Shown in pieces: positions 4,868 to 36,639 of a stretch of 64,000 nucleotides of DNA (its first letter is position 1; every line of letters begins with the position of its first letter). Location: the NCBI GenBank assembly GCA_031553655.1, contig JAVBLG010000032.1, positions 115-64,114 of the forward strand, given 5' to 3'. Under the pieces are notes generated by a model that was not told the origin of the DNA, did no database searches, and saw nothing but the letters and a program-made list of their open reading frames with translations. The stretch is from Desulfovibrionaceae bacterium (GTDB taxonomy: Bacteria > Desulfobacterota > Desulfovibrionia > Desulfovibrionales > Desulfovibrionaceae). A program made the position numbers and the translations under genes.

Positions 4868-4975
4868 ATGTCCATGAGCTTCAATACCGCCATATCTTCT
4901 TTTGCTGCCGCCACCTGTTGGTGGGGTTTCTGGTTTAGCGGTCGGGCCCGGGAGCTGACAGGGGGTATGCGGTAA
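4868..4975 (+). CDS. trpL: trp operon leader peptide (35 aa) with three Trp codons
   Basis: Reads MSMSFNTAISSFAAATCWWGFWFSGRARELTGGMR*. TGG TGG lies at 4919-4924 and TGG at 4931-4933. It is followed by a strong terminator and then trpE. Confidence 0.65.
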   Translation: MSMSFNTAISSFAAATCWWGFWFSGRARELTGGMR

Positions 4976-5005
4976 TCCGCATGTAATTGTAATACAGACC
5001 TGATC

Positions 5006-5040
5006 AGAGCCGCGGGCCAAGTGCCCGCGGCTCTTTTTTA
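5006..5040 (+). terminator. Attenuator terminator upstream of trpE
   Basis: AGAGCCGCGGGC-caagt-GCCCGCGGCTCT is a perfect 12-bp stem followed by TTTTTTATTCTTTTTTTT. It sits 58 nt before the trpE ATG. Confidence 0.8.
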
Positions 5041-5097: not shown

Positions 5098-6525
5098 ATG
5101 GAAATCATACTTGAACAAAAAAGCCGGATAATGGAAAGCGACGTGGAAACCCCAATCAGCCTTTTTTTGCGCCACGTGGGCGGCAATGAGGGTATTTTGC
5201 TTGAAAGCGCCGAGGTTGACGGCCGATGGGGACGCCACAGCGTGATCGCCGGCGACTTTTTGCTGGTCATATCTTGCGTAAACGGCCTGATGCGCCTTGA
5301 TATACGCGCTCCCGGCCTTGCTTCCCTGCGAACTCTGGACGGTATGCCTTTCATGGAAGGGCTGCGCGCGGTAACGCGGGCTTTAAATATAAAGCCCGCA
5401 AAAAGGGAAAATGAAGATTTTCCGCCCATTACCCGCGCCATTTACGGTTATTTAGGCTACGGCCTGTCCGGGCTTATGGAACCCAGGCTGGCTGCGGTTC
5501 TGCCGCCCGAAGAATCTGAATCATGTCTGGCCCTGCCCGGAACATTGATATTTTATGATCACGCCTACAACCGGGTTTACCACCTGTCACTATGCCCACC
5601 GCAACCACATTTTCAAGATAGGGAAATGAACAGTGCGGGCACATCCTCGACCTCAACTTCGGATCACCGGGATCTGTCCATGCTTCCGGCCGGCATCAGC
5701 GAGCCTGCCTCCACCATGAGTAAAGACGAATATATGGAAACGGTGCGCGGTATAAAAGAACTTATCCGTCAGGGAGAAGCTATTCAAATTGTGCCTTCCC
5801 TGGGCTTCCAGGCGCGGTTTCATGGTGAGCCTTTCACCGTATACCGGCGTCTCCGGCGTGTAAATCCTTCCCCATACATGTTTTTCATGCGTCTGCCCGG
5901 CCTCACTTTGCTTGGATCCTCGCCTGAAACGCTGGTGGGGTGCGAGGGCGGAACTTTGCGGCTTTGCCCGATAGCGGGAACCCGCCCCAGAGGCGAAGGC
6001 GAGGCCGAAGACAATTTGTTTGAGGCCGAACTGGTCAGCGATCCCAAGGAGCAGGCCGAGCATGTCATGCTGGTGGATCTTGGCCGCAACGACCTGGGGC
6101 GGGTGGCAAAAACCGGCTCAGTATCCCTTGAACGCTACATGGAAGTGGAACGGTTCTCCCATGTGATGCACCTAACCTCATACATCAGGGCCGAACTTGC
6201 CCCGCAATTCGATGTCATTGATGCGCTGAGCGCCGTATTTCCGGCCGGAACGGTCAGCGGCGCACCCAAAATACGGGCCATGGAAATAATAGCCGGGGTG
6301 GAAAAACGTGCGCGGGGCCCCTATGCCGGGGCCATAGGCTGGTTGGGGCTGGACCGGAACGAGGCACATATGGACACAGGCATCACTATACGCAGCATAT
6401 GGTTCAAAGATGGGCAAGCTTTTTGGCAGGCCGGAGGAGGCGTGGTGCTGGACTCTTCGCCCGAGGCTGAATGGAATGAATGCAACAACAAGGCCGCTGT
6501 GGCTGTGGCCGTCCTGAAAGGTTGA
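5098..6525 (+). CDS. trpE: Anthranilate synthase component I
   Basis: Chorismate-binding enzyme motifs (LESAE..., GTRPRG, FPAGTVSGAPK, GPYAGAIGW). First gene of the trp cluster. Confidence 0.95.
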   Translation: MEIILEQKSRIMESDVETPISLFLRHVGGNEGILLESAEVDGRWGRHSVIAGDFLLVISCVNGLMRLDIRAPGLASLRTLDGMPFMEGLRAVTRALNIKPAKRENEDFPPITRAIYGYLGYGLSGLMEPRLAAVLPPEESESCLALPGTLIFYDHAYNRVYHLSLCPPQPHFQDREMNSAGTSSTSTSDHRDLSMLPAGISEPASTMSKDEYMETVRGIKELIRQGEAIQIVPSLGFQARFHGEPFTVYRRLRRVNPSPYMFFMRLPGLTLLGSSPETLVGCEGGTLRLCPIAGTRPRGEGEAEDNLFEAELVSDPKEQAEHVMLVDLGRNDLGRVAKTGSVSLERYMEVERFSHVMHLTSYIRAELAPQFDVIDALSAVFPAGTVSGAPKIRAMEIIAGVEKRARGPYAGAIGWLGLDRNEAHMDTGITIRSIWFKDGQAFWQAGGGVVLDSSPEAEWNECNNKAAVAVAVLKG

Positions 6526-27572: not shown

Positions 27573-29717
27573 ATGATTTGGTACCGCAATTTGCGCATGA
27601 CTTCTAAAATAGTGCTTCCTGTTGGTTTGATGCTTATTGTAGCTCTGGGTTTTCTGGCTTGGCAGATTAGGGAAAAAAGTTCCTATGCGATAGAACATGT
27701 GGCGCAGAGAGAATTGGCATATCTGGCCGGGCAGTACGGAAACGAAATCAAATCAGTCTTTGAAGTGGCGCTGGACGGAGCCCAGGCTTTTGCGGACGCG
27801 ATGGTGGTTCCACTGGAAAATAACGACCCCATCACCAGAGAGCGATTCATAATGATGATGGAAGGCGTACAAAAAAGCCGTCCCGAATTTCTAGCCGCCG
27901 GAACAGCCTGGGAACCCAATGCCTACGACGGTAAAGACACCGAAAATGCCGGCAAGCCCGGTTCAGACAAAAACGGCCGTTTCATCCCCTATAGCGCAAC
28001 CGGCTTTCCCCTTACCACCCTTCAGGATCTGGAATCCAGCGAATATTATTCCGAACCCAAAAGGCGCGGCAGAAGCTATTTGAGCAAACCTTATATTTAC
28101 GACGTGGGCGGCGGCAAGAAAATTTTAATGACCACGGCCAGCGCTGTTGTAAAAGTCAAAGGTAAATTCAGCGGTATTGTTCTGATTGATATCTCCCCCG
28201 AAGTAGCCGCAAAGACGGTGAGTTCTCTCCATATTTACCAATCGGGCTGGGGCGCGGTGCTTACCCAGGACGGCACCATAGCGGTGGCCAGAGATGATGC
28301 CAGCTTTGGCAAAAGCATATTTTCCACCGGAGTCACCCAAAAGCAGGATGCCTTGCGTCGAGCCATGAATGCGGGCGAACCTTTTGTGGAGCGCGGCAAC
28401 TACCAGGGCAAGGATTCTTTTTTCTATTATTATCCCATACCCTTCCCCCTGACCGGCCAGAACTGGTATTTTATGGTCAGCGCGCCCATTGACGAGGTGT
28501 TGGCCGAGGTTGCCAACATAAGCCGAGTGACCCTTATTTTCAGCGCCGCTGTTCTGGTTTTGTCCATTCTGGTCATTTTTGTGGTGGTGCGCGCCTGTGC
28601 GAAGCCCATGGGCATTTTGGCCGAAACAGCCAAGGACATAGCCGGGGGCAACCTGCATGCTCCTGTGCATGACGAAAACTTTAGCGGCGAAGTGCTTGAA
28701 TTGAGCACCGCCTTGAAAAATATGATTGCCTCGCTGATTGAAAATATTGAAAAGGCCGAAGCCATGAGCGCCGATGCCCAAGCCCAGACCGCCAAAGCCG
28801 AAGTGGCCATGCGCGAGGCTGAACAGGCCCGGCTGACGGCCGAACGGGCCAAGCGCGACGGCATGCTTGCTGCCGCGAATCAGCTTGAGGGCGTGGTGAA
28901 CATTATTTCCACCGCTTCCGAAGAGCTTTCGGCTCAAATTGAGCAATCGGAACGCGGCTCGTCTGAACAGGCCAACCGCTTGGGCGAGGCGGCAACGGCT
29001 ATGAGCGAAATGAACAGCACAGTAATGGAAGTTGCTCGTAATGCTTCGCAAGCATCGCAAATTTCGGTACAAACCAGGGCCAAGGCCGAAGACGGAGCCA
29101 AGGTAGTGCAATCCGCCGTTACCGGCATACAAAACGTGCAGACTGTCTCGCTTGCGCTTAAGGCCGACATGACAAAACTATCCGAGCAGGCTCAGGGCAT
29201 TTCCCAGATTATGGGTGTTATTTCCGACATAGCCGATCAGACCAATCTTCTCGCCCTTAACGCCGCCATTGAAGCGGCGCGGGCGGGTGACGCCGGGCGC
29301 GGCTTTGCCGTGGTGGCCGATGAGGTGCGCAAGCTGGCCGAAAAAACCATGACTTCCACAGTTGATGTGGGCAATGCCATAAAATCCATACAGGAAAGCG
29401 TTAATCAGAGCATCAAGCAGGTGGATCTGGCCGTAAGCCTCATAGATACGGCAACGGATCAATCCAACAGATCCGGAGAATCACTCAGCGAAATAGTCAC
29501 CATGGTGGACAGCACCGCCGACCAGGTGCGGGGCATAGCCACGGCCAGCGAGCAGCAATCTTCCACCAGCGAAGAGATAAACCGTTCCATAGAGCATATC
29601 AACAGCATAGCTTCGCAAACAGCTGAAGCCATGCATCAGGCGGCCAGGGCCGTGAGCGATCTTGCCGCACAGGCCCAGGCGCTGAGTACGTTGATTGAGG
29701 ATATGAAGAGAGGTTAG
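27573..29717 (+). CDS. Methyl-accepting chemotaxis protein (periplasmic dCache-like sensor, HAMP, MA domain)
   Basis: GAGGAG SD. Two TM segments flank a domain of about 290 aa. Highly conserved signalling hairpin ADQTNLLALNAAIEAARAGDAGRGFAVVADEVRKLAE. Confidence 0.92.
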   Translation: MIWYRNLRMTSKIVLPVGLMLIVALGFLAWQIREKSSYAIEHVAQRELAYLAGQYGNEIKSVFEVALDGAQAFADAMVVPLENNDPITRERFIMMMEGVQKSRPEFLAAGTAWEPNAYDGKDTENAGKPGSDKNGRFIPYSATGFPLTTLQDLESSEYYSEPKRRGRSYLSKPYIYDVGGGKKILMTTASAVVKVKGKFSGIVLIDISPEVAAKTVSSLHIYQSGWGAVLTQDGTIAVARDDASFGKSIFSTGVTQKQDALRRAMNAGEPFVERGNYQGKDSFFYYYPIPFPLTGQNWYFMVSAPIDEVLAEVANISRVTLIFSAAVLVLSILVIFVVVRACAKPMGILAETAKDIAGGNLHAPVHDENFSGEVLELSTALKNMIASLIENIEKAEAMSADAQAQTAKAEVAMREAEQARLTAERAKRDGMLAAANQLEGVVNIISTASEELSAQIEQSERGSSEQANRLGEAATAMSEMNSTVMEVARNASQASQISVQTRAKAEDGAKVVQSAVTGIQNVQTVSLALKADMTKLSEQAQGISQIMGVISDIADQTNLLALNAAIEAARAGDAGRGFAVVADEVRKLAEKTMTSTVDVGNAIKSIQESVNQSIKQVDLAVSLIDTATDQSNRSGESLSEIVTMVDSTADQVRGIATASEQQSSTSEEINRSIEHINSIASQTAEAMHQAARAVSDLAAQAQALSTLIEDMKRG

Positions 29718-29848
29718 ATACCGCTCATGTGTTACTTACCTTGGTCATATTATTCGCTCGCGACATTGATTAAAAAATATATTGACAATGTTCCTGATTT
29801 GGGCATAGGCTGACTCTCGAACAAAATTACACAGGACAAAATTTTATT

Positions 29849-29935
29849 ATGAACACCGCCGCCAACAGTTTCTCTTTCTTTTACTTTAGCTATTTTTATT
29901 GCTGGGGAGACGCTCGCGGCCGCGTTGCCTGTTAA
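29849..29935 (+). CDS. Aromatic-amino-acid operon leader peptide (28 aa), rich in Phe/Tyr/Trp codons
   Basis: Reads MNTAANSFSFFYFSYFYCWGDARGRVAC*. Nine of twelve consecutive residues (positions 8-19) are aromatic. A terminator follows, and then the aro operon. Confidence 0.65.
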   Translation: MNTAANSFSFFYFSYFYCWGDARGRVAC

Positions 29936-29962
29936 TTTTGGCATTTTGAACATCAGGAACAG

Positions 29963-29996
29963 ACGGGCCGCCCAAAAAGCGGCCCGTTTTTTTTTA
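29963..29996 (+). terminator. Attenuator terminator upstream of the aro operon
   Basis: ACGGGCCGC-ccaaaaa-GCGGCCCGT is a 9-bp stem followed by 9 T. It lies 114 nt before ATG 30110. Confidence 0.8.
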
Positions 29997-30109
29997 TTCA
30001 TCACACTCCCACGCATAACCGGAACCATAAAATGGCGGCGCGAGCGTGGGGGTACAAAACAGGGCATTTTGCAAAAAATAATCAAAAAATGCCATAGGGG
30101 GATAAGAAA

Positions 30110-30907
30110 ATGCATCTTGGTAAAAAAATACGTCTGGAAAGGATCATCAACCGCAAAACCCAAAAAACCCTGATTATCCCCATGGATCACGGAGTTACCG
30201 TGGGAGCAATCGAAGGGCTTGTGGACATGCGCGAAGCCGTGAACGACATGGCCGAAGGCGGAGCCGACGCCGTGCTCATGCACAAAGGGCTGGTGCGCTG
30301 CGGGCACCGCAAGGCGGGCCGCGACCTGGGCCTTATAGTGCATCTTTCGGCCTCAACCGCGCTTTCGCCGCTGGCCAACACCAAGGTTCTGGTATGCACT
30401 GTGGAAGAGGCCATCAAGCACGGCGCGGACGCGGTTTCCGTTCATGTGAATCTGGGCGACCCCAATGAAAGAATCATGCTGGCCGACATGGGCCGTGTGG
30501 CCGAGGCCTGCGACAACTGGGGCATTCCTCTGTTGGCCATGGTCTACGCCAGAGGGCCGCAAATAGAAAACAGCTTCGCCCCGGCCGTGGTGGCCCATTG
30601 CGCCAGGGTGGGCGTGGAGCTTGGCGCGGACATCGTAAAGGTTTCCTACAGCGGTGACGTGGAATCTTTCTCCGAAGTCGTGGCGGCTTGCTGCGTGCCC
30701 GTGGTCATCGCCGGGGGTGAGCGCATGGAATCCACCCGCGACTTCCTTCAGGTGGTGCATGACTCTATGAAGGCCGGTGGCGCGGGCCTTTCCGTTGGCC
30801 GCAATGTGTTCCAGCACCCCAATCGCGCGGCCCTGGTGCGCGCCCTGCGTGCCTTGGTGCACGAAGGAGCTGATGTGGATGCCGCTCTGGCCATGGTTGG
30901 AGAATAA
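30110..30907 (+). CDS. 2-amino-3,7-dideoxy-D-threo-hept-6-ulosonate (ADH) synthase, DhnA-type class I aldolase (alternative first step of shikimate pathway)
   Basis: IIPMDHGVT..., DAVLMHKG..., DIVKVSY (Schiff-base Lys context). MJ0400-like family. Lies adjacent to the DHQ synthase II gene. Confidence 0.82.
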
Positions 30908-30970
30908 TCCGGAGCCAGGGGATAAAACCGGAACCGGCATTTCCAACTGGAAATGCCGCGGGAGAAGACC

Positions 30971-31948
30971 ATGACTGAAATATTGTTTAAAAGCGCGCCG
31001 ACGGTCAAAGAAGAACTTACCCTGGCCTTAGAGGCCGGGGTCGATGGGCTTGTCGTGCCCCACGATAGCCTGGATTCCGCATTGGGACTGGCTCGTTGTG
31101 ATGTTGTAGCCGCCGAAGATTTGCCTGTATTCGCTATTATCAACAAAGAAAGCGAAGAGGAAGCCATACGTCGCTACAAGAGCGGGGAAAGACTTATTAT
31201 AGGACGGGGCGCGGAAATAATCCCCCTCGAAAATATTCTGGCGGCGCTTCCGGACACTAAAGTCTACATGGAAGCGGGCAGCCTGGCCGAGGCCGAGCTG
31301 GCCGCCGGAATTCTGGAGCGCGGCGTGCAGGTTGTTGTGCTCACCCCCGAAGCTCTGCCCGATATAAGGCAAATTGTGTCTCGTCTCAAAACCGGAAAGG
31401 GCGAATTTTCTCTGCAAACGGCGGAAATAACCGCCATACGTCAGGCCGGTCTGGGCCATCGGGTGTGCATTGACACCATATCCATTTTAAAACGTGGGCA
31501 AGGCATGCTGGTGGGCAATTCCAGCGCCTTTTCCTTTCTGGTGCATGCTGAAACTGAATATAATGCTTATGTGGCGGCCCGCCCATTCCGGGTGAATGCC
31601 GGGGCTGTGCAGAGCTATGCTTTCATGCCCGGAGACAAAACACGCTATCTGGAAGAAATACGCTGCGGCGACGAAGTGCTGATTGTGTCGGCTGACGGCT
31701 CGGCTCACGCGGCAACTGTTGGCCGCGTTAAAACCGAAATAAGGCCTATGCTGCTTATTGAGGCCCGCATTGGCGAAATCAGGGGTACGGTTTTTCTGCA
31801 AAATGCCGAAACTATACGCCTCACCCGCCCGGACGGCGTTCCGGTAAGCGTGGTGGCCCTGAAGGAAGGCGACGAGGTGTTGTGCCATACCGATGCCGCC
31901 GGGAGGCATTTCGGTATGCGCATCAATGAAAATATCATGGAGATTTAA
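30971..31948 (+). CDS. 3-dehydroquinate synthase type II (archaeal-type)
   Basis: GMLVGNSSAFSFLVHAET and the overall MJ1249-like pattern. ATG 30971 has a GGAG SD, so it is preferred over the ORF-track alternative at 30953. Confidence 0.8.
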   Translation: MTEILFKSAPTVKEELTLALEAGVDGLVVPHDSLDSALGLARCDVVAAEDLPVFAIINKESEEEAIRRYKSGERLIIGRGAEIIPLENILAALPDTKVYMEAGSLAEAELAAGILERGVQVVVLTPEALPDIRQIVSRLKTGKGEFSLQTAEITAIRQAGLGHRVCIDTISILKRGQGMLVGNSSAFSFLVHAETEYNAYVAARPFRVNAGAVQSYAFMPGDKTRYLEEIRCGDEVLIVSADGSAHAATVGRVKTEIRPMLLIEARIGEIRGTVFLQNAETIRLTRPDGVPVSVVALKEGDEVLCHTDAAGRHFGMRINENIMEI

Positions 31949-31954
31949 TAGAAA

Positions 31955-33076
31955 ATGGCTCCTGACTTACAGATATTGCGCCAGGAAATAGATCGGATTG
32001 ACGACGAGCTTTTGCGGCTTTTAAACCGCCGCGCCGCCATTAGTATTGATGTTGGCAAAAGCAAGGCCGCAAACACCCAGATTTTCAATCCAAGGCGCGA
32101 AGAAAACATTTTGAACGAGCTGCGCGAGAAAAATTCCGGCCCCCTGCCCGATGCCCACATGGCGGCCATCTGGCGAGAAATATTCTCTTCTTCGCGCACC
32201 CTGCAAAGAAGGCAGCGCGCCGCCTATCTTGGCCCCGAAGGTACTTTTTCCCACGCTGCCGGACTGGCCTGCCTGGGGCATTCGGTGGACATGATGCCTT
32301 GCCCCGATTTACGCGACGTTTTCATGAGCGTGCACAACCGTGACTGCGATCTGGGCGTCATTCCCCTGGAAAATTCCCTGCACGGCACTGTGGTGCAAAG
32401 CGTGGATCTTTTTATGGAAACCGAGGTGCGTATTCTGGCTGAGACATACCTGCGCATCTCTCACAGCCTGCTCAGCCTTGAAACGTCCCGGGAAAACGTA
32501 TGCAAGGTATATTCACACCCCCAGGCTCTGGCCCAATGTGAAATGTGGTTGCGCGCCAAAATGCCCGGGGCGGAACTGGTTGCTGTGGAATCAACGGCCA
32601 AATCCGCGCTGCTGGCGGCGAACGAGCGCGGCGCGGCGGCCATTGCCAGCGCCGAACTGGCCGATGACAACAATTTGCATGTGCTGGCCGCCAATATTGC
32701 CGATACCCCCGACAATTATACCCGCTTTCTGGTCATAGGCCCGCATAATGAAAGCGAAGCAATCGCCAATAATGCTTTGCCTGTGGACAAAACATCAATT
32801 TTGTTTACAGTATCCGACAAACCCGGCGCTCTGGCAAAAATACTCAATCTTCTGGCCAGAGAAAATATCAACATAAGCAAACTTGAATCGCGACCGCAAA
32901 AAGGGCACAAATGGCGGTACATTTTCTTTGCCGACATCGATTGTGAGCTTGACACACCGGCCCATAGGCACATAATCCATGACCTTAAAGAATTGTGCGA
33001 CAGTTTGCGTATTTTAGGATCGTATGTAAGGGCGCGTCAGCCCTTGACGCCCGCGCCTGGAATATTCTACGAATGA
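31955..33076 (+). CDS. pheA: Bifunctional chorismate mutase / prephenate dehydratase (P-protein)
   Basis: N-terminal CM_2 (LRQEIDRIDDELLRLLNRRA), a PDT domain (AYLGPEGTFSH...PLENSLHG) and a C-terminal ACT domain (SKLESRP). Confidence 0.92.
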   Translation: MAPDLQILRQEIDRIDDELLRLLNRRAAISIDVGKSKAANTQIFNPRREENILNELREKNSGPLPDAHMAAIWREIFSSSRTLQRRQRAAYLGPEGTFSHAAGLACLGHSVDMMPCPDLRDVFMSVHNRDCDLGVIPLENSLHGTVVQSVDLFMETEVRILAETYLRISHSLLSLETSRENVCKVYSHPQALAQCEMWLRAKMPGAELVAVESTAKSALLAANERGAAAIASAELADDNNLHVLAANIADTPDNYTRFLVIGPHNESEAIANNALPVDKTSILFTVSDKPGALAKILNLLARENINISKLESRPQKGHKWRYIFFADIDCELDTPAHRHIIHDLKELCDSLRILGSYVRARQPLTPAPGIFYE

Positions 33077-33160
33077 AATGAGTAAATACTCTTTTAAAAA
33101 AGAGCTTCGAATTATGGATAATTTCAAAAGCAAAATGTTATAAAAGGGAAAAAAGCAGAA

Positions 33161-34477
33161 ATGATTACTGTATTCGCTCCGTCGTCCAAATCTCTTTCGC
33201 ATCGGGCCGTCATTGCCGCTTCTCTGGCCTCTGGGGAATCGTTGTTGGAAAACGTGCTGCAAAGTAAGGATCTGGAGCGCACTATTGCAATCTTGTCGGC
33301 GTCCGGGGCCGAAATAAGTGAAAAAAAACCCGGAATTCTAAAAATAAAAGGTGTGGGCGGCAAATTGGCCGGAGGAAATCCCAATGCTCCGCTGCCCTGC
33401 GATGTGCATGAATCGGGCACAACCTGCCGCCTGCTCACTGCTGTGCTGGCTTCGGGCAAGGGGGTTTTCAGAATCTACGGGGCGCAGCGCATGCACGAGC
33501 GTCCCATTGGCGAATTGGTGGAAGCCCTGCGCGTCGCCGGAGCCAACATTACCTACGAGGGCCGCGACGGTTGCCCTCCGCTGCTGCTGGAAACTGAAGG
33601 TCTGGCCGGAGGCCGGGTGGAGATTACCCTTGACGAGTCCAGCCAGTATCTTTCCGGCCTGCTTCTGGCAGCGCCCCTGGCCGAAAGCGGGTTAGTCATC
33701 AATATTGTTGGAAAAAGTTCCGTGTCCTGGCCCTATGTAGGCCTGACTCTGAAAATTCTCGACGATTTCGGTGTGGACTTCGGCGTGCAGGAAAAAGAAA
33801 ACGGCGCATGGACCAGCCGCGACTGGCGCGGCATAAAAGAGGCCGTGCCCGACAATATGCGCTTTATTGTGGCCCCCGGCGCTTACCGCGCCCGTAAGCT
33901 GGCCGTTGAAGGCGACTGGTCCAATGCCTCATATTTTCTCGCGGCCGGAACAGTTGGAACTAATCCCGTACGCGTAAAAAATCTTGTTGCCGATTCCCTT
34001 CAGGGCGATCGGGCCATCATGGATATTTTAAACAGCATGGGCGCCAAAATAAAAGTGGAAGACAATACCATCACCGCCTATCCCGCCAAATTGCGGGGAG
34101 TGGAGGTAAATATGGCCCATTGCCCGGATCTGGCGCCTACAGTGGCAATAGTGGCCGCCTTTGCCGAAGGCGAAACCAGGATAGGCGGCGTAGCCCACCT
34201 GCGCCTGAAGGAAAGCAACCGCATCACCGCGCCCATCAAAGAAATGCGCAAGGCCGGCATAGCCGCCCACGAAACCGATGACGGCATGGTCATTTACGGC
34301 GGTATGGGTAAACCGGAACCCGGGACCATATTTTCCAGCCATCAGGATCACCGCATGGCCATGTCCCTGGCGCTGTTAGGTCTTAACGGAATTGCCGTGA
34401 ACCTGGATGATGCCGGTGTTGTCGGCAAATCTTTTCCTGATTTCTGGGAAGTATGGCGCAAAGTGGTAAAGCCGTGA
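33161..34477 (+). CDS. aroA: 3-phosphoshikimate 1-carboxyvinyltransferase (EPSP synthase)
   Basis: PSSKSLSHRA..., ESGTTCRLL..., LRLKESNRI..., HQDHRMAMS. Confidence 0.95.
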   Translation: MITVFAPSSKSLSHRAVIAASLASGESLLENVLQSKDLERTIAILSASGAEISEKKPGILKIKGVGGKLAGGNPNAPLPCDVHESGTTCRLLTAVLASGKGVFRIYGAQRMHERPIGELVEALRVAGANITYEGRDGCPPLLLETEGLAGGRVEITLDESSQYLSGLLLAAPLAESGLVINIVGKSSVSWPYVGLTLKILDDFGVDFGVQEKENGAWTSRDWRGIKEAVPDNMRFIVAPGAYRARKLAVEGDWSNASYFLAAGTVGTNPVRVKNLVADSLQGDRAIMDILNSMGAKIKVEDNTITAYPAKLRGVEVNMAHCPDLAPTVAIVAAFAEGETRIGGVAHLRLKESNRITAPIKEMRKAGIAAHETDDGMVIYGGMGKPEPGTIFSSHQDHRMAMSLALLGLNGIAVNLDDAGVVGKSFPDFWEVWRKVVKP

Positions 34478-35226
34478 AGAGCCTGAATGTAGCCGTCATC
34501 GGCCACGAAGGACGCATGGGAGCCATGTTTGCCGAAAGGCTGGCCGAATGCGGGCATCGAGTGCGCGGTCTGGATCGCCCCCTTAGCGCGGAAAAAGCCG
34601 CTGAAGCCCTGGGCAACGTCGATTTGGCTCTTTTGTGCGTTCCGGCTGCGGCTTTTGCCGAGGTGTTGAAAATAATAACACCTTATCTGCCGTCAGACGC
34701 TTTGCTCATGGATATTGCCTCGGTGAAGTCCCTGCCCATGGCCGACATGCGTGCCGCCTGGAAAGGCCGTATGGTGGGCAGCCACCCCCTTTTCGGCCCT
34801 AATCCGCCGCCCGATCCACGCGTGGCCCTTATGCGCGAGTGCGACACTTGCCCGGCATGCTTCGAACTTGCCCGAGAGCTGTTCGAAGACATGGGATATG
34901 TAGTTTTTGAAACTACGGCCAAAAAACACGACCAGGCTATGGCCGCCGTGCAGGGCCTGAACTTTATTTCCAACTTGGCCTATCTGGCCGCTCTGGCCCA
35001 TCAGGACGAACTGCTGCCCTTTCTCACCCCATCCTTTCGGCGGCGTCTGGAATCGGCGCGTAAAATGCTCACCGAAGACGGCGAGCTGTTCTCGGGTCTG
35101 TTCGAAGCCAACCCCTATGCTCAGGACGCCGTAAAGCACTTCCGCTCCTACCTCCATGTGGCCGCCGGAGGCGATGTGGATTTGTTGCTGGAAAAGACTA
35201 AATGGTGGTGGGGGAAGGGGGAGTAG
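34453..35226 (+). CDS. tyrA: Prephenate dehydrogenase
   Basis: VAVIGHEGRMG Rossmann motif and the GSHPLFGP motif. The start is either ATG 34453 or GTG 34474 (GTGA overlap with the aroA stop). The C-terminal WWWGKGE is encoded by a GGGGGAAGGGGG motif. Confidence 0.85.
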   Translation: MAQSGKAVKSLNVAVIGHEGRMGAMFAERLAECGHRVRGLDRPLSAEKAAEALGNVDLALLCVPAAAFAEVLKIITPYLPSDALLMDIASVKSLPMADMRAAWKGRMVGSHPLFGPNPPPDPRVALMRECDTCPACFELARELFEDMGYVVFETTAKKHDQAMAAVQGLNFISNLAYLAALAHQDELLPFLTPSFRRRLESARKMLTEDGELFSGLFEANPYAQDAVKHFRSYLHVAAGGDVDLLLEKTKWWWGKGE

Positions 35227-35358: not shown

Positions 35359-36639
35359 ATGTCTACTTTCCATACCATACTGCCGTATTTAAAGCTTCTT
35401 TTTGTTTTCGCCACCATGCTCACGGCCATACGCTTCAAATTGGGCCTGGGCTGGTCCATGCTGGGCGGCAGTTTTTTGCTGGCCCTGTGTTTTGGCGTTG
35501 ACCCGCTGCAATGGTTTCAGGCCGGAATAAGCATTTTCAGCGACTCCACCATTCTCACCGTGTGGATTATTCTGGCGCTTATTTTGTGCATGTCTTCAAT
35601 TATGGAAAAAAACGGGCAGGCTGAACGCTTCATGGGCGCGCTGTCGCACCGCATCACCAGCCCGTCCGCGCGCCTGGTGTTTTTTCCCATTCTGATCGGC
35701 CTTTTGCCCATGCCCGGCGGCGCGGTTTTTTCCGCTCCGCTGATCAATGCCGTGGCCCGCGATTTTGATCTGCCTGAAGTGGATAAATCGCTTATCAACT
35801 ACTGGTTCAGGCACACGGCGGAAATGTCCTGGCCGCTCTTTCCCGGCATTATCCTGGCCGCGGGCATAGCCGGGGTGCCCACCATCCGCCTGGTACTGGT
35901 AACCGGACCTCTGGTTCTGGTATTCTATGTGGCCGGCTGGTGGTTTTTCATGCGCAAGCTTAAGTTTCCTCCCGGCCCCGGAGTGGTCAGTTCAAAAGAG
36001 GAAGGAAGCTGGAGTAATATTCTCTATCAGGGCCTGCCGATCATTGTAGCCATTGGCGGGGCTTTGATTTTTGAGGCGCTCATTGCCTTTACCTTGCCAT
36101 CCGTCCCCATGGATTATGGGGTAGTACCGGCATTGTGTCTGGCTATAGCCGTGAGCCTTAAGCAAAACGGCAAGACGTTCAAGGATTTTGTCGATGCGCT
36201 GCGCGGTCCGCAAGTGGCCCCGATAATATTTATGGTGGGGGCCATAGGCGTGTTCAAAAACGTGCTGGGAGCGGGCGGCATTGTGCAAAGCCTGCAAATT
36301 TCCGGCGACGGTCTGCTGGCTCTTTCTTTGGCGGCCGTTTTTCTGCCCATGTTGGTGGGGGCTCTCACCGGAATTTTGATGGCCTGTGTGGGGGCTACCT
36401 TCCCGTTGCTGGTTGCGGTGCTGGCCTCCATGGGCATTACCGGAGAGCAAATTATGCCCTGGATCGCCCTTGCTACCTTTTCGGCCTTTTCCGGCACCAT
36501 GGGGTCGCCCCTGCACATCTGCTTTGTGCTGTCCTGCGAATATTTCAAGGTAACCATGCCCGAATCATGGCGCAGACTGCCAGGCCCGGTGGCCTTTTTC
36601 TGGCTGGGAGGCTTTTTGTATTTTATGATGATAAAGTAA
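35359..36639 (+). CDS. Polytopic inner-membrane protein, DUF401-like putative transporter
   Basis: About 10-12 hydrophobic helices. LPMPGGAVFSAPL and WFRHTAEMSWP segments resemble the DUF401/TIGR00529 family as I recall it. Confidence 0.55.
   Translation: MSTFHTILPYLKLLFVFATMLTAIRFKLGLGWSMLGGSFLLALCFGVDPLQWFQAGISIFSDSTILTVWIILALILCMSSIMEKNGQAERFMGALSHRITSPSARLVFFPILIGLLPMPGGAVFSAPLINAVARDFDLPEVDKSLINYWFRHTAEMSWPLFPGIILAAGIAGVPTIRLVLVTGPLVLVFYVAGWWFFMRKLKFPPGPGVVSSKEEGSWSNILYQGLPIIVAIGGALIFEALIAFTLPSVPMDYGVVPALCLAIAVSLKQNGKTFKDFVDALRGPQVAPIIFMVGAIGVFKNVLGAGGIVQSLQISGDGLLALSLAAVFLPMLVGALTGILMACVGATFPLLVAVLASMGITGEQIMPWIALATFSAFSGTMGSPLHICFVLSCEYFKVTMPESWRRLPGPVAFFWLGGFLYFMMIK

What the first reader, a model, noticed from the sequence alone, without database searches (positions are those of the whole stretch)
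29849..29996. Aromatic-rich leader peptide (FSFFYFSYFYCW) with terminator upstream of the ADH-synthase/DHQS-II/pheA/aroA/tyrA operon
A 28-codon ORF encodes MNTAANSFSFFYFSYFYCWGDARGRVAC*. It packs 5 Phe, 3 Tyr and 1 Trp codon into 12 consecutive positions. A 9-bp stem terminator (ACGGGCCGC/GCGGCCCGT) and 9 T follow, about 110 nt before the first aro gene.

The peptide's 3' coding part contains GCGGCC (29918-29923). This can pair with GGCCGC (29966-29971) of the terminator's 5' arm, giving a plausible antiterminator.

A single leader sensing all three aromatic amino acids for a common-pathway operon would differ from the single-amino-acid pheL/trpL leaders. In this window it coexists with a separate Trp-only leader for the trp operon.
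Basis: partly seen in the sequence, partly recalled or inferred. Interest (0 to 1): 0.6.

Follow-up and report, generated by a model that had tools for sequence, protein, structure and literature searches.

The report
Aromatic leader-peptide attenuator of aro operon
A 28-codon mini-gene packed with Phe, Tyr and one Trp codon, followed by a switchable terminator, precedes this gut-type Desulfovibrio relative's only aromatic amino-acid entry operon; it is a diverged copy of a textbook-style ribosome-sensing switch that is uncatalogued yet present in about 95% of Desulfovibrionales genomes sampled.

Summary
The ORF 29849-29935 encodes MNTAANSFSFFYFSYFYCWGDARGRVAC. A strong terminator (29961-29989) and a run of nine T follow, 114 nt before the ADH-synthase gene.

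It is a real leader-peptide transcription attenuator. A model built from 17 relatives finds the element in 191 of 201 genomes of the order. A profile built without the window's sequence finds only this site and the trp leader in the whole 3.6-Mb genome. Terminator, antiterminator (93-95% of cells paired, with compensatory changes) and a 1:2 hairpin are all supported. The proposed GCGGCC/GGCCGC antiterminator is right, and it extends by CGUU/GACG.

Two sub-claims need correction:
- The trp leader is not Trp-only (CWWGFWF).
- Mixed aromatic leaders are already known (C. glutamicum aroR).

In 18 of 20 relatives the operon runs on into trpE, so the mixed Phe/Tyr/Trp leader is ancestral. Here the trp operon has split off and the aro leader keeps one Trp codon. 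A close relative that lacks trpE has none.

The mechanism is textbook, but the family is in no curated library I searched. No expression data were available.

The parts
29782..29787 (+). -35-like TTGACA preceded by an A/T-rich stretch (inferred promoter of the leader transcript)
   Evidence: Read. In 46 of 58 related leaders TTGAC lies 35-40 nt before the leader ATG. Here it lies 67 nt before. The transcription start is not mapped.
29806..29811 (+). -10-like TAGGCT, 18 nt after the -35 box (inferred and weak)
   Evidence: Read. It matches TAnnnT only and falls below the threshold of the promoter scan, which found none.
29833..29836 (+). Shine-Dalgarno-like AGGA, 12 nt before the leader ATG
   Evidence: Read. 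Relatives of the D. piger group and Mailhella also have AAGG/GAGGA before their leaders, whereas most of the order appears leaderless.
29849..29935 (+). Leader ORF, 28 codons plus TAA: MNTAANSFSFFYFSYFYCWGDARGRVAC
   Evidence: Homologous leaders were found.
29870..29905 (+). Regulatory codon run FSFFYFSYFYCW (5 Phe, 3 Tyr, 1 Trp); it forms the loop between regions 1 and 2
29852..29862 (+). Region 1 (AAC.C.GCCGC), which pairs with region 2 as the anti-antiterminator
   Evidence: MFE fold. The family-wide 1:2 complementarity is species-specific. The window's duplex is weak at -13.2 kcal/mol.
29916..29926 (+). Region 2 (GCGGCC-G-CGUU), which pairs with region 1 or with the terminator's 5' arm (antiterminator)
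   Evidence: Fold without region 4. The homologous helix is 93-95% paired with compensatory changes.
29961..29989 (+). Intrinsic terminator hairpin. Region 3 is GACGGGCCGC at 29962-29971 and region 4 is GCGGCCCGU at 29979-29987.
29987..29995 (+). Run of nine T at the terminator
30110..35226 (+). Controlled operon: ADH synthase (30110-30907), DHQ synthase II (30953-31948), chorismate mutase/prephenate dehydratase (31955-33076), EPSP synthase (33161-34477), prephenate dehydrogenase (34453-35226)
   Evidence: Pfam and NCBIfam (TIGR01949, 394 bits, above its cut-off). This is the only ADH synthase in the genome. There is no DAHP synthase: the single PF00793 hit is KdsA.
4868..5040 (+). Paralogous trp attenuator: leader (M)SMSFNTAISSFAAATCWWGFWFSGRARELTGGMR (ATG at 4868 or 4874, stop at 4973-4975), then terminator 5006-5034 and a T-run, before trpE (5098) of trpE-GD-C-F-B-A

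Best explanation
This is a classical ribosome-mediated (leader-peptide) transcription attenuator of the operon that holds the genome's only shikimate-pathway entry enzymes plus pheA, aroA and tyrA.

How it works. Transcription probably starts about 30 nt upstream of the ATG and makes a leader RNA. Its 28-codon ORF is itself a hairpin: codons 2-5 (region 1) pair with codons 23-26 (region 2), and the Phe/Tyr/Trp run lies in the loop.

- When charged tRNA-Phe and tRNA-Tyr are plentiful, the ribosome runs to the TAA. There it covers region 2, and after release 1:2 reforms. Regions 3 and 4 then fold into the terminator and RNA polymerase stops at the T-run.
- When a charged aromatic tRNA is scarce, the ribosome stalls in the run. 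Region 1 is held apart and region 2 stays free. Region 2 (GCGGCC-G-CGUU) pairs with region 3 (GACG-GGCCGC) before region 4 is made. The terminator cannot form and the operon is transcribed.

I commit to Phe and Tyr as the main inputs here. The single terminal Trp codon is at most a minor input, left over from ancestors in which the same leader also controlled the trp genes.

Shown: the sequence anatomy, the alternative pairings, the conservation and covariation, and the operon context. Inferred: the transcription start, translation of the ORF, the ribosome geometry and the regulatory response.
For: - ORF, terminator and context.
- Small ORFs with an aromatic run and a terminator precede the orthologous gene in relatives from different genera.
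- Covariance model R1 finds the element in 191 of 201 genomes of the order, in 162 of 165 good-quality genomes and in 47 of 49 genera.
- A profile built from 88 relatives without the window's sequence finds only the aro leader (E 7e-5, nearly full length) and the trp leader (E 3e-5) in the whole genome. The next hit has E 2.3.
- With region 4 withheld, region 2 pairs with region 3 in the window (-21.7 kcal/mol, against -20.2 for the terminator) and in all 16 relatives folded.
- The antiterminator helix is 94.5% paired in 17 sequences and 93.4% in 89 sequences, against 34-48% when slid. One pair is UA:67, CG:11, UG:7. No shuffle of 500 reaches the observed covariation. The 89-sequence alignment was fitted to the terminator, not to this helix.
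- The terminator is 95% paired.
- Region 1:2 complementarity is species-specific: native mean -24.8 against cross-species -20.0 kcal/mol, permutation p < 1/5000.
- Amino acids in the conserved tail swap freely (C/R, A/V/T) while base-pairing is kept. That points to selection on the RNA rather than the peptide.
- In paralogous copies in relatives the codon run changes with the gene controlled. Phe-only runs precede an SSF symporter, a PaaK-like ligase and a second ADH synthase. A Tyr-only run precedes another ADH synthase. Trp runs precede trpE and a TRAP binding protein.
- Every one of 18 leaders in front of an aro-trp super-operon has at least 1 Trp codon. A relative without trpE has none.
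Against:
- The window's copy is the weak end of the family. Its antiterminator is only 6 + 4 bp with a bulge. Its 1:2 duplex is -13.2 kcal/mol, against a family mean of -24.8.
- At equilibrium the terminator plus local hairpins always wins, wherever a ribosome is masked. The switch therefore has to be kinetic.
- The promoter -10 is poor and no promoter passed the scan threshold.
- The SD-like AGGA is short and lies 12 nt from the ATG.
- Sequences in the covariation tests are related, so the shuffle statistics overstate independence.
Confidence: 0.88

Rival explanations
1. The attenuator is the same, but it is a true three-way sensor. The single Trp codon (W19) is as effective as the Phe and Tyr codons, so shortage of any of the three derepresses the only pathway entry.
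For: The operon supplies chorismate for Trp as well, and it holds the sole ADH synthase. With TGG in the A site, region 2 begins 13 nt downstream, roughly at the edge of a stalled ribosome, so it may remain free (coordinates; footprint size from general knowledge). The D. piger group keeps exactly one Trp codon although its trp operon is also separate.
Against: There is only one Trp codon, against eight Phe/Tyr codons. It is the last of the run, where a stalled ribosome is most likely to occlude region 2. Several gut relatives have lost Trp codons altogether. The trp operon has its own Trp-rich leader.
Confidence: 0.25
2. The hairpin is simply the constitutive terminator of the upstream chemoreceptor gene (ends at 29717), and the aromatic ORF is a chance feature of a T-rich spacer.
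For: No other terminator-like site lies between 29717 and the leader. About a dozen aromatic-rich windows occur elsewhere in the genome by composition alone.
Against: The ORF and hairpin travel with the aro operon, not with the upstream gene, in genomes of 47 of 49 genera. A TTGACA box lies between the chemoreceptor gene and the ORF. Regions 1, 2 and 3 co-vary.
Confidence: 0.03
3. The hairpins switch in response to a protein or a small ligand (TRAP-like protein, T-box-like or riboswitch control), and translation of the ORF is irrelevant.
For: Alternative terminator and antiterminator folds are common to all such systems. No translation data exist.
Against: No Rfam family reaches its threshold. 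The open frame, the start codon and an aromatic run are kept in nearly every relative. The identity of the codons changes with the controlled gene in paralogues. Only decoding explains that.
Confidence: 0.04
4. The ORF encodes a functional hydrophobic micro-peptide, and the terminator merely ends its small transcript.
For: The peptide tail (RACG-like) and the N-terminal motif (NHS/NHT) look conserved at first sight.
Against: Those motifs coincide with RNA regions 1 and 2. They tolerate radical amino-acid swaps (Cys/Arg) that preserve pairing. The window's peptide tail (GDARGRVAC) differs from the family consensus, yet pairing is kept. Leaders use TTT 85% and TAT 81% of the time, against 42% and 56% in the next gene.
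Confidence: 0.03

Closest known systems
E. coli pheL-pheA and trpL-trp operon attenuators (Rfam Phe_leader RF01859, Trp_leader RF00513)
   Same: A short leader ORF enriched in end-product codons, four RNA segments forming 1:2, 2:3 and 3:4, and an intrinsic terminator before the first biosynthetic gene. A ribosome at the stop codon covers region 2.
   Different: There is no sequence or model membership: Trp_leader scores 20.6 bits against a gathering score of 41, and Phe_leader scores 19.7 against 55, on the wrong strand. Three amino acids are mixed in one run. The run lies in the loop between regions 1 and 2 rather than inside region 1. The operon starts with archaeal-type ADH synthase and DHQ synthase II. 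Most relatives appear to translate the leader from a leaderless mRNA.
Corynebacterium glutamicum aroR-aroF attenuator (Neshat et al. 2014, as summarised in PMC11802643)
   Same: A mixed aromatic leader peptide (Phe-Tyr-Phe) controls, by attenuation, the gene for the first common step of aromatic biosynthesis.
   Different: It has only three regulatory codons and no Trp. It is reported to respond to Phe but not to Tyr. It belongs to Actinobacteria and controls a DAHP synthase rather than an ADH-synthase-family aldolase. I found no sequence relationship.
The uncatalogued Desulfovibrionales aro(-trp) leader family
   Same: Same position, same three pairings, and homologous terminator and region 2. 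The window is found by a profile built without it.
   Different: The window's copy is diverged in five ways. (1) The terminator lacks the inner GGC/GCC extension. (2) Region 2 is GCGGCC-G-CGUU instead of GCCUGUGGUC. (3) Only one Trp codon remains. (4) A 5' UTR of about 30 nt with AGGA replaces the leaderless geometry. (5) The operon ends at tyrA instead of running on into trpE.

Membership tests
Leader-peptide (ribosome-mediated) transcription attenuators | A short translatable ORF on the same transcript, upstream of a biosynthetic operon | tested here: met
   An ATG-initiated 28-codon ORF, with AGGA 12 nt upstream and a TTGACA box 67 nt upstream. Homologous ORFs are present in relatives. The transcription start and translation are not measured.
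Leader-peptide (ribosome-mediated) transcription attenuators | Clustered codons for the end product(s) of the controlled pathway | tested here: met
   9 aromatic codons in 12 positions. Only 17 of 5.13 million windows genome-wide reach that. The operon encodes pheA and tyrA plus the common pathway.
Leader-peptide (ribosome-mediated) transcription attenuators | An intrinsic terminator between the leader ORF and the first structural gene | tested here: met
   An 11-pair stem at 29961-29989 with 9 T, at -20.2 kcal/mol. It is 95% paired across relatives.
Leader-peptide (ribosome-mediated) transcription attenuators | An antiterminator that uses the terminator's 5' arm and excludes the terminator | tested here: met
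   29916-29926 pairs with 29962-29971 when region 4 is withheld. The homologous helix is 93-95% paired with compensatory changes.
Leader-peptide (ribosome-mediated) transcription attenuators | A region 1:2 pairing, and a stop codon placed so that a terminating ribosome blocks region 2 | tested here: met
   The 1:2 pairing is in the MFE fold. It is species-specific across 54 leaders, but weak here at -13.2 kcal/mol. The stop codon is 7 nt after region 2. That a terminating ribosome covers region 2 is inferred from the usual footprint size.
Leader-peptide (ribosome-mediated) transcription attenuators | Read-through that rises when the cognate charged tRNA is scarce | not testable with these tools
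Rfam Phe_leader (RF01859) / Trp_leader (RF00513) | A score at or above the family's gathering threshold | tested here: not met
   Trp_leader scores 20.6 bits against 41. Phe_leader scores 19.7 against 55, on the minus strand.
   nhmmer with 88 relatives and the window excluded gives window 29877-29991, E 7.3e-5, profile positions 4-124 of 125. The only other hit below E = 1 is the trp leader. The R1 score of 59.7 bits is not independent, because the window was in the seed alignment.

The most novel reading that the evidence does not exclude
The window shows one state of an order-wide, modular 'attenuator chassis' (region 1, codon loop, region 2, terminator). The chassis has been duplicated and re-coded by swapping the codon run.

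- Mixed Phe/Tyr/Trp runs control aro-trp super-operons.
- Phe-only and Tyr-only runs control stand-alone ADH synthase isoenzymes. This is an attenuation-based counterpart of the AroG/AroF/AroH isoenzyme system.
- Phe-only runs also control an SSF symporter and a PaaK-like ligase.
- Trp runs control trpE and a TRAP binding protein.

After the operon split in the window's lineage, the trp genes acquired a sister leader (CWWGFWF) and the aro leader shed Trp codons. A relative that lost trpE lost them all. Leader codon composition would then be a readable record of what each transcript supplies.

The same lineage also switched from leaderless to SD-led translation of the leader.
Probability: 0.6. 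Interest if true: 0.6.

Novelty: new member of a known kind. Interest (0 to 1): 0.42.

Why it matters
- It explains how a bacterium with a single, archaeal-type entry into aromatic biosynthesis, and no DAHP synthase isoenzymes, can still match pathway expression to more than one end product. It counts several kinds of codon in one leader.
- The family is nearly universal in Desulfovibrionales. That order includes gut Desulfovibrio, Mailhella and Lawsonia relatives and the model sulfate reducers. Yet the family is absent from Rfam, Pfam and NCBIfam, and the leader ORFs are almost never annotated. A public model would therefore improve annotation and regulon reconstruction.
- The comparative series (super-operon, split operon, lost trp genes; mixed, Phe-only, Tyr-only and Trp leaders on one RNA scaffold) is a natural experiment on how attenuators evolve their specificity.
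- The mechanism itself would not surprise a specialist.

Tried and rejected
- **Rfam.** A permissive scan of 29000-31000 gave only sub-threshold, mutually inconsistent hits.
- **Peptide families.** NCBIfam and Pfam scans of six leader peptides found nothing.
- **Exact look-up.** Of ten leader peptides, one was in the 15-billion-protein collection, and it was unnamed.
- **Literature.** Eight searches and four paper look-ups found no description of a Desulfovibrionales aromatic leader. The Desulfovibrio vulgaris transcript-annotation paper (J Bacteriol 2011), which I recalled from memory, could not be opened. Older subscription-journal surveys of attenuators could not be checked either, so prior prediction cannot be excluded.
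- **Equilibrium folding with a masked ribosome.** At every codon the result was the terminator. That design cannot show a kinetic switch, so I replaced it with folds that withhold region 4.
- **The hairpin as the chemoreceptor gene's terminator.** Rejected on synteny.
- **Trp-codon number scaling with linked trp genes.** Only partly borne out. Super-operon leaders have 1-3 Trp codons, and the window and the D. piger group still have 1. Only the complete absence of Trp codons coincides with unlinked or lost trp genes. Operon content was not checked for the MAGs.
- **A second entry enzyme.** The single PF00793 hit is KDO-8-phosphate synthase, and PF01474 is absent.

Full report
**1. What is in the sequence**

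The + strand carries an ATG at 29849 that opens a 28-codon frame ending in TAA at 29933-29935. It encodes MNTAANSFSFFYFSYFYCWGDARGRVAC. Codons 8-19 (29870-29905) hold 5 Phe, 3 Tyr and 1 Trp.

Twenty-five nt after the stop lies a hairpin at 29961-29989. Its core is ACGGGCCGC/GCGGCCCGT with a 7-nt loop, and nine T follow. The next gene starts at 30110.

GCGGCC is at 29916-29921, inside the palindrome GCGGCCGC at 29916-29923.

On chance: only 17 of 5.13 million stop-free 12-codon windows in the six frames of this 3.6-Mb genome reach 9 aromatic codons. They fall in about a dozen loci, most of them T-rich or out-of-frame stretches. The region folds better than shuffles (z = -3.2). None of this alone proves function.

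**2. Context**

The downstream genes are:
- an ADH-synthase-family aldolase (TIGR01949, 394 bits, above its cut-off);
- 3-dehydroquinate synthase II;
- chorismate mutase/prephenate dehydratase;
- EPSP synthase;
- prephenate dehydrogenase.

The genome has one ADH synthase and no DAHP synthase. The single PF00793 hit is KDO-8-phosphate synthase, and PF01474 is absent. This operon is therefore the only entry into the pathway.

Upstream, a chemoreceptor gene ends at 29717. No terminator-like site lies between it and the leader. A TTGACA box (29782-29787) with an A/T-rich stretch before it does lie there.

By the record titles of the nearest matches, the organism belongs with gut Desulfovibrionaceae. 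The aldolase is 77-82% identical to Desulfovibrio sp. MAGs, 79% to D. piger ATCC 29098, about 72% to Mailhella and 68% to Lawsonia.

**3. Conservation**

In 41 relatives from different genera, 39 have the aldolase. In 17 of the 30 loci fetched, a simple scan already found a small ORF with an aromatic run (consensus FYFWYF(Y/W)F), followed by a tail such as RACG(L/P/Q)G and a nearly invariant terminator, AGGGCCGC(A/G)GGC-loop-GCCGGCGGCCCU-Un. The ORF lies 60-270 nt before the aldolase gene or before a tandem paralogue.

A covariance model of this core (R1) matches 191 of 201 genomes drawn from the order. That is 162 of 165 good-quality genomes and 47 of 49 genera. Elsewhere in the phylum only about 26 of some 290 genomes match, and weakly.

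The window was part of the seed alignment of R1, so I repeated the test without it. An nhmmer profile of 88 relatives, run over the whole genome, returns just two sites below E = 1. These are the aro leader (window 29877-29991, E 7e-5, nearly full length) and the trp leader (E 3e-5).

**4. The three pairings**

- **Terminator (3:4).** It is 95% paired over 17 sequences.
- **Antiterminator (2:3).** When region 4 is withheld, as it is during transcription, region 2 pairs with the terminator's 5' arm in the window and in all 16 relatives folded. In most relatives it is at least as stable as the terminator. In the window the helix is GCGGCC (29916-29921) with GGCCGC (29966-71), then a bulged G, then CGUU (29923-26) with GACG (29962-65). 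The domain scores -21.7 kcal/mol, against -20.2 for the terminator. Across the family the helix is 94.5% paired in 17 sequences and 93.4% in 89 sequences, against 34-48% when the partner is slid. The one freely varying position co-varies (UA 67, CG 11, UG 7), and no shuffle of 500 reaches the observed covariation. The 89-sequence alignment was fitted to the terminator, not to this helix.
- **Anti-antiterminator (1:2).** The N-terminal codons pair with region 2, so the whole ORF is a hairpin with the aromatic run as its loop. In 54 leaders the native 5'/3' coding segments pair better than cross-species combinations (-24.8 against -20.0 kcal/mol, permutation p < 1/5000). Relatedness inflates such statistics, but the direction is clear.

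The window's 1:2 pairing is weak (-13.2 kcal/mol). In the window all three segments have changed together relative to the consensus: region 1 is GCCGC rather than CCACAG, region 2 is GCGGCC rather than CUGUGG, and the terminator has lost its inner GGC/GCC step.

**5. Geometry (inferred)**

I take a ribosome to shield roughly 12 nt beyond the first A-site base and about 15 nt behind the P site. This figure is general knowledge and was not tested here.

- Stalls at codons 8-17 leave region 2 (which starts at 29916) free, while region 1 is covered or just unwound.
- A stall on the last codon of the run, TGG (29903-05), ends about at 29915, so it is borderline.
- A ribosome at the TAA covers about 29915-29947, which is all of region 2. 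This favours the terminator.

At equilibrium the terminator always wins, wherever the ribosome is masked. The decision must therefore be kinetic, as in the classical systems.

**6. RNA selection, not peptide selection**

The 'conserved' peptide tail varies by radical substitutions that keep pairing: TGT/CGT gives Cys/Arg, and GCC/GTC/ACC gives Ala/Val/Thr. The window's tail, GDARGRVAC, is unlike the consensus yet still pairs.

Leaders use TTT for 85% of Phe codons and TAT for 81% of Tyr codons. In the next gene the figures are 42% and 56%. This fits a need for an unstructured U-rich loop, or for wobble-decoded codons, or both.

**7. Which amino acids are sensed**

In 18 of 20 relatives examined over 9 kb, the operon runs straight on from tyrA into trpE-trpGD(-trpC). 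The mixed Phe/Tyr/Trp leader is thus the ancestral controller of a 12-gene aro-trp super-operon. All 18 such leaders have 1-3 Trp codons.

The two exceptions among those 20, like the window itself, belong to the window's wider clade:
- One relative (G017, 72% identical aldolase) has no Trp codon in its leader (FNSFYFSYYY) and no trpE anywhere in its complete genome.
- The D. piger-type genus has one Trp codon and a separate trp operon behind its own WWW leader.

The window likewise has one Trp codon and a separate trp operon 25 kb upstream.

Several gut MAG leaders also lack Trp codons. I did not check their operon content.

The window's trp leader, (M)SMSFNTAISSFAAATCWWGFWFSGRARELTGGMR, has its own 12-bp terminator. 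It matches R1 (E about 1e-5) and also matches the profile built without the window. It is Trp-dominated rather than Trp-only.

I therefore read the aro leader here as mainly a Phe/Tyr sensor, with Trp as a minor or vestigial input.

**8. A re-coded family in relatives**

Genomes with several R1 hits show the same RNA scaffold with different codon runs:
- RFFFFFSFRFF and similar runs precede a sodium:solute symporter and a phenylacetate-CoA-ligase-like enzyme (Pfam).
- FFFFFSFYF precedes a monocistronic second ADH synthase.
- YYYGY precedes another monocistronic ADH synthase.
- WWW runs precede trpE and a TRAP-type binding protein.

Only decoding of the ORF explains this correlation. It suggests an attenuation-based counterpart of isoenzyme-specific control. 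The window's genome has only the aro and trp copies.

**9. Start of the leader**

In 46 of 58 related leaders TTGAC begins 35-40 nt before the ATG (mode 37). A -10-like hexamer follows after 17 nt, and there is no Shine-Dalgarno sequence. This implies leaderless translation.

The window has the box 67 nt before the ATG and carries AGGA. Mailhella-like relatives have it at 58 nt with GAGGA. The D. piger group has it at about 58 nt with AAGG. This lineage seems to have switched to SD-led initiation. All of this is inferred from sequence.

**10. Comparison with what is known**

The mechanism is that of trpL and pheL. The element is not a member of any Rfam family. The peptides match no NCBIfam or Pfam model.

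The nearest functional precedent is C. glutamicum aroR, a Phe-Tyr-Phe leader before the DAHP synthase gene aroF (PMC11802643).

I found no paper on a Desulfovibrionales aromatic leader in the held library. Some candidate sources could not be opened.

Earlier AI notes of this scan describe the same family in other genomes and reach the same reading. I treated them as leads and re-derived the evidence here.

**11. Limits**

The transcription start, the translation of the ORF and the response to amino acids are therefore inferred.

**12. Verdict**

This is a genuine, diverged member of an order-wide but uncatalogued leader-peptide attenuator family. The mechanism is ordinary. The evolutionary context is interesting: operon fission, loss of Trp codons, and a paralogous trp leader.

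Noticed in passing
window 4868-5040: The trp operon (trpE 5098-6525, trpGD, trpC, trpF, trpB, trpA to 11824) has its own leader, (M)SMSFNTAISSFAAATCWWGFWFSGRARELTGGMR, and a 12-bp terminator AGAGCCGCGGGC/GCCCGCGGCUCU. It matches the aro-leader model and so looks like a paralogue. It mixes 3 Trp with 2 Phe in the run.
   Followed up: partly
L035-L070 and other loci, 35-40 nt before each leader ATG: In 46 of 58 related leaders a TTGAC(A) box begins 35-40 nt before the ATG and there is no Shine-Dalgarno sequence. This implies leaderless leader mRNAs. The window, Mailhella-like and D. piger-group relatives instead have 20-30 extra nt carrying AGGA, GAGGA or AAGG.
   Followed up: partly
L067, L071, L075 (SSF symporter); L088, L091 (PaaK-like ligase); L080, L081, L076 (second ADH synthases); L079 (TRAP DctP); L085 (trpE): The same RNA scaffold carries Phe-only, Tyr-only or Trp runs in front of transporters, a phenylacetate-CoA-ligase-like gene and monocistronic ADH synthase paralogues in relatives. 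This looks like an attenuation-based aromatic regulon with isoenzyme-specific leaders.
   Followed up: partly
G017 (L002, L118): The complete 2.2-Mb genome of a close relative has no trpE. Its aro operon shows only ADH synthase, DHQS-II and pheA within 9 kb. Its leader has no Trp codon. It is probably a Trp auxotroph whose leader has adapted.
   Followed up: partly
window 29997-30109: Between the terminator and the aldolase start there are two further hairpins, about 30005-30053 and 30063-30093. The second ends just before the GGGGGA ribosome-binding site. Relatives carry a GGCCGCC-like segment after the terminator that could pair with its 3' arm in read-through transcripts. This is the subject of a separate note of this scan, and I did not analyse it.
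   Followed up: no
window 29718-29848: The chemoreceptor gene ending at 29717 has no terminator-like site of its own. Read-through from it would also meet the attenuator's terminator.
   Followed up: no
37 related leaders against their downstream genes: There is a strong bias to U-ending aromatic codons in leaders: TTT 85% and TAT 81%, against 42% and 56% in the adjacent gene.
   Followed up: yes
G000 contig C2:10228-10297 (outside the window): A weak partial match to the attenuator model (E 0.195, terminator half only). It is probably just a similar terminator.
   Followed up: no
window 35359-36639: A DUF401 membrane protein gene follows tyrA after a 130-nt gap, at the place where relatives have trpE. 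I did not examine whether it is co-transcribed with the aro operon.
   Followed up: no
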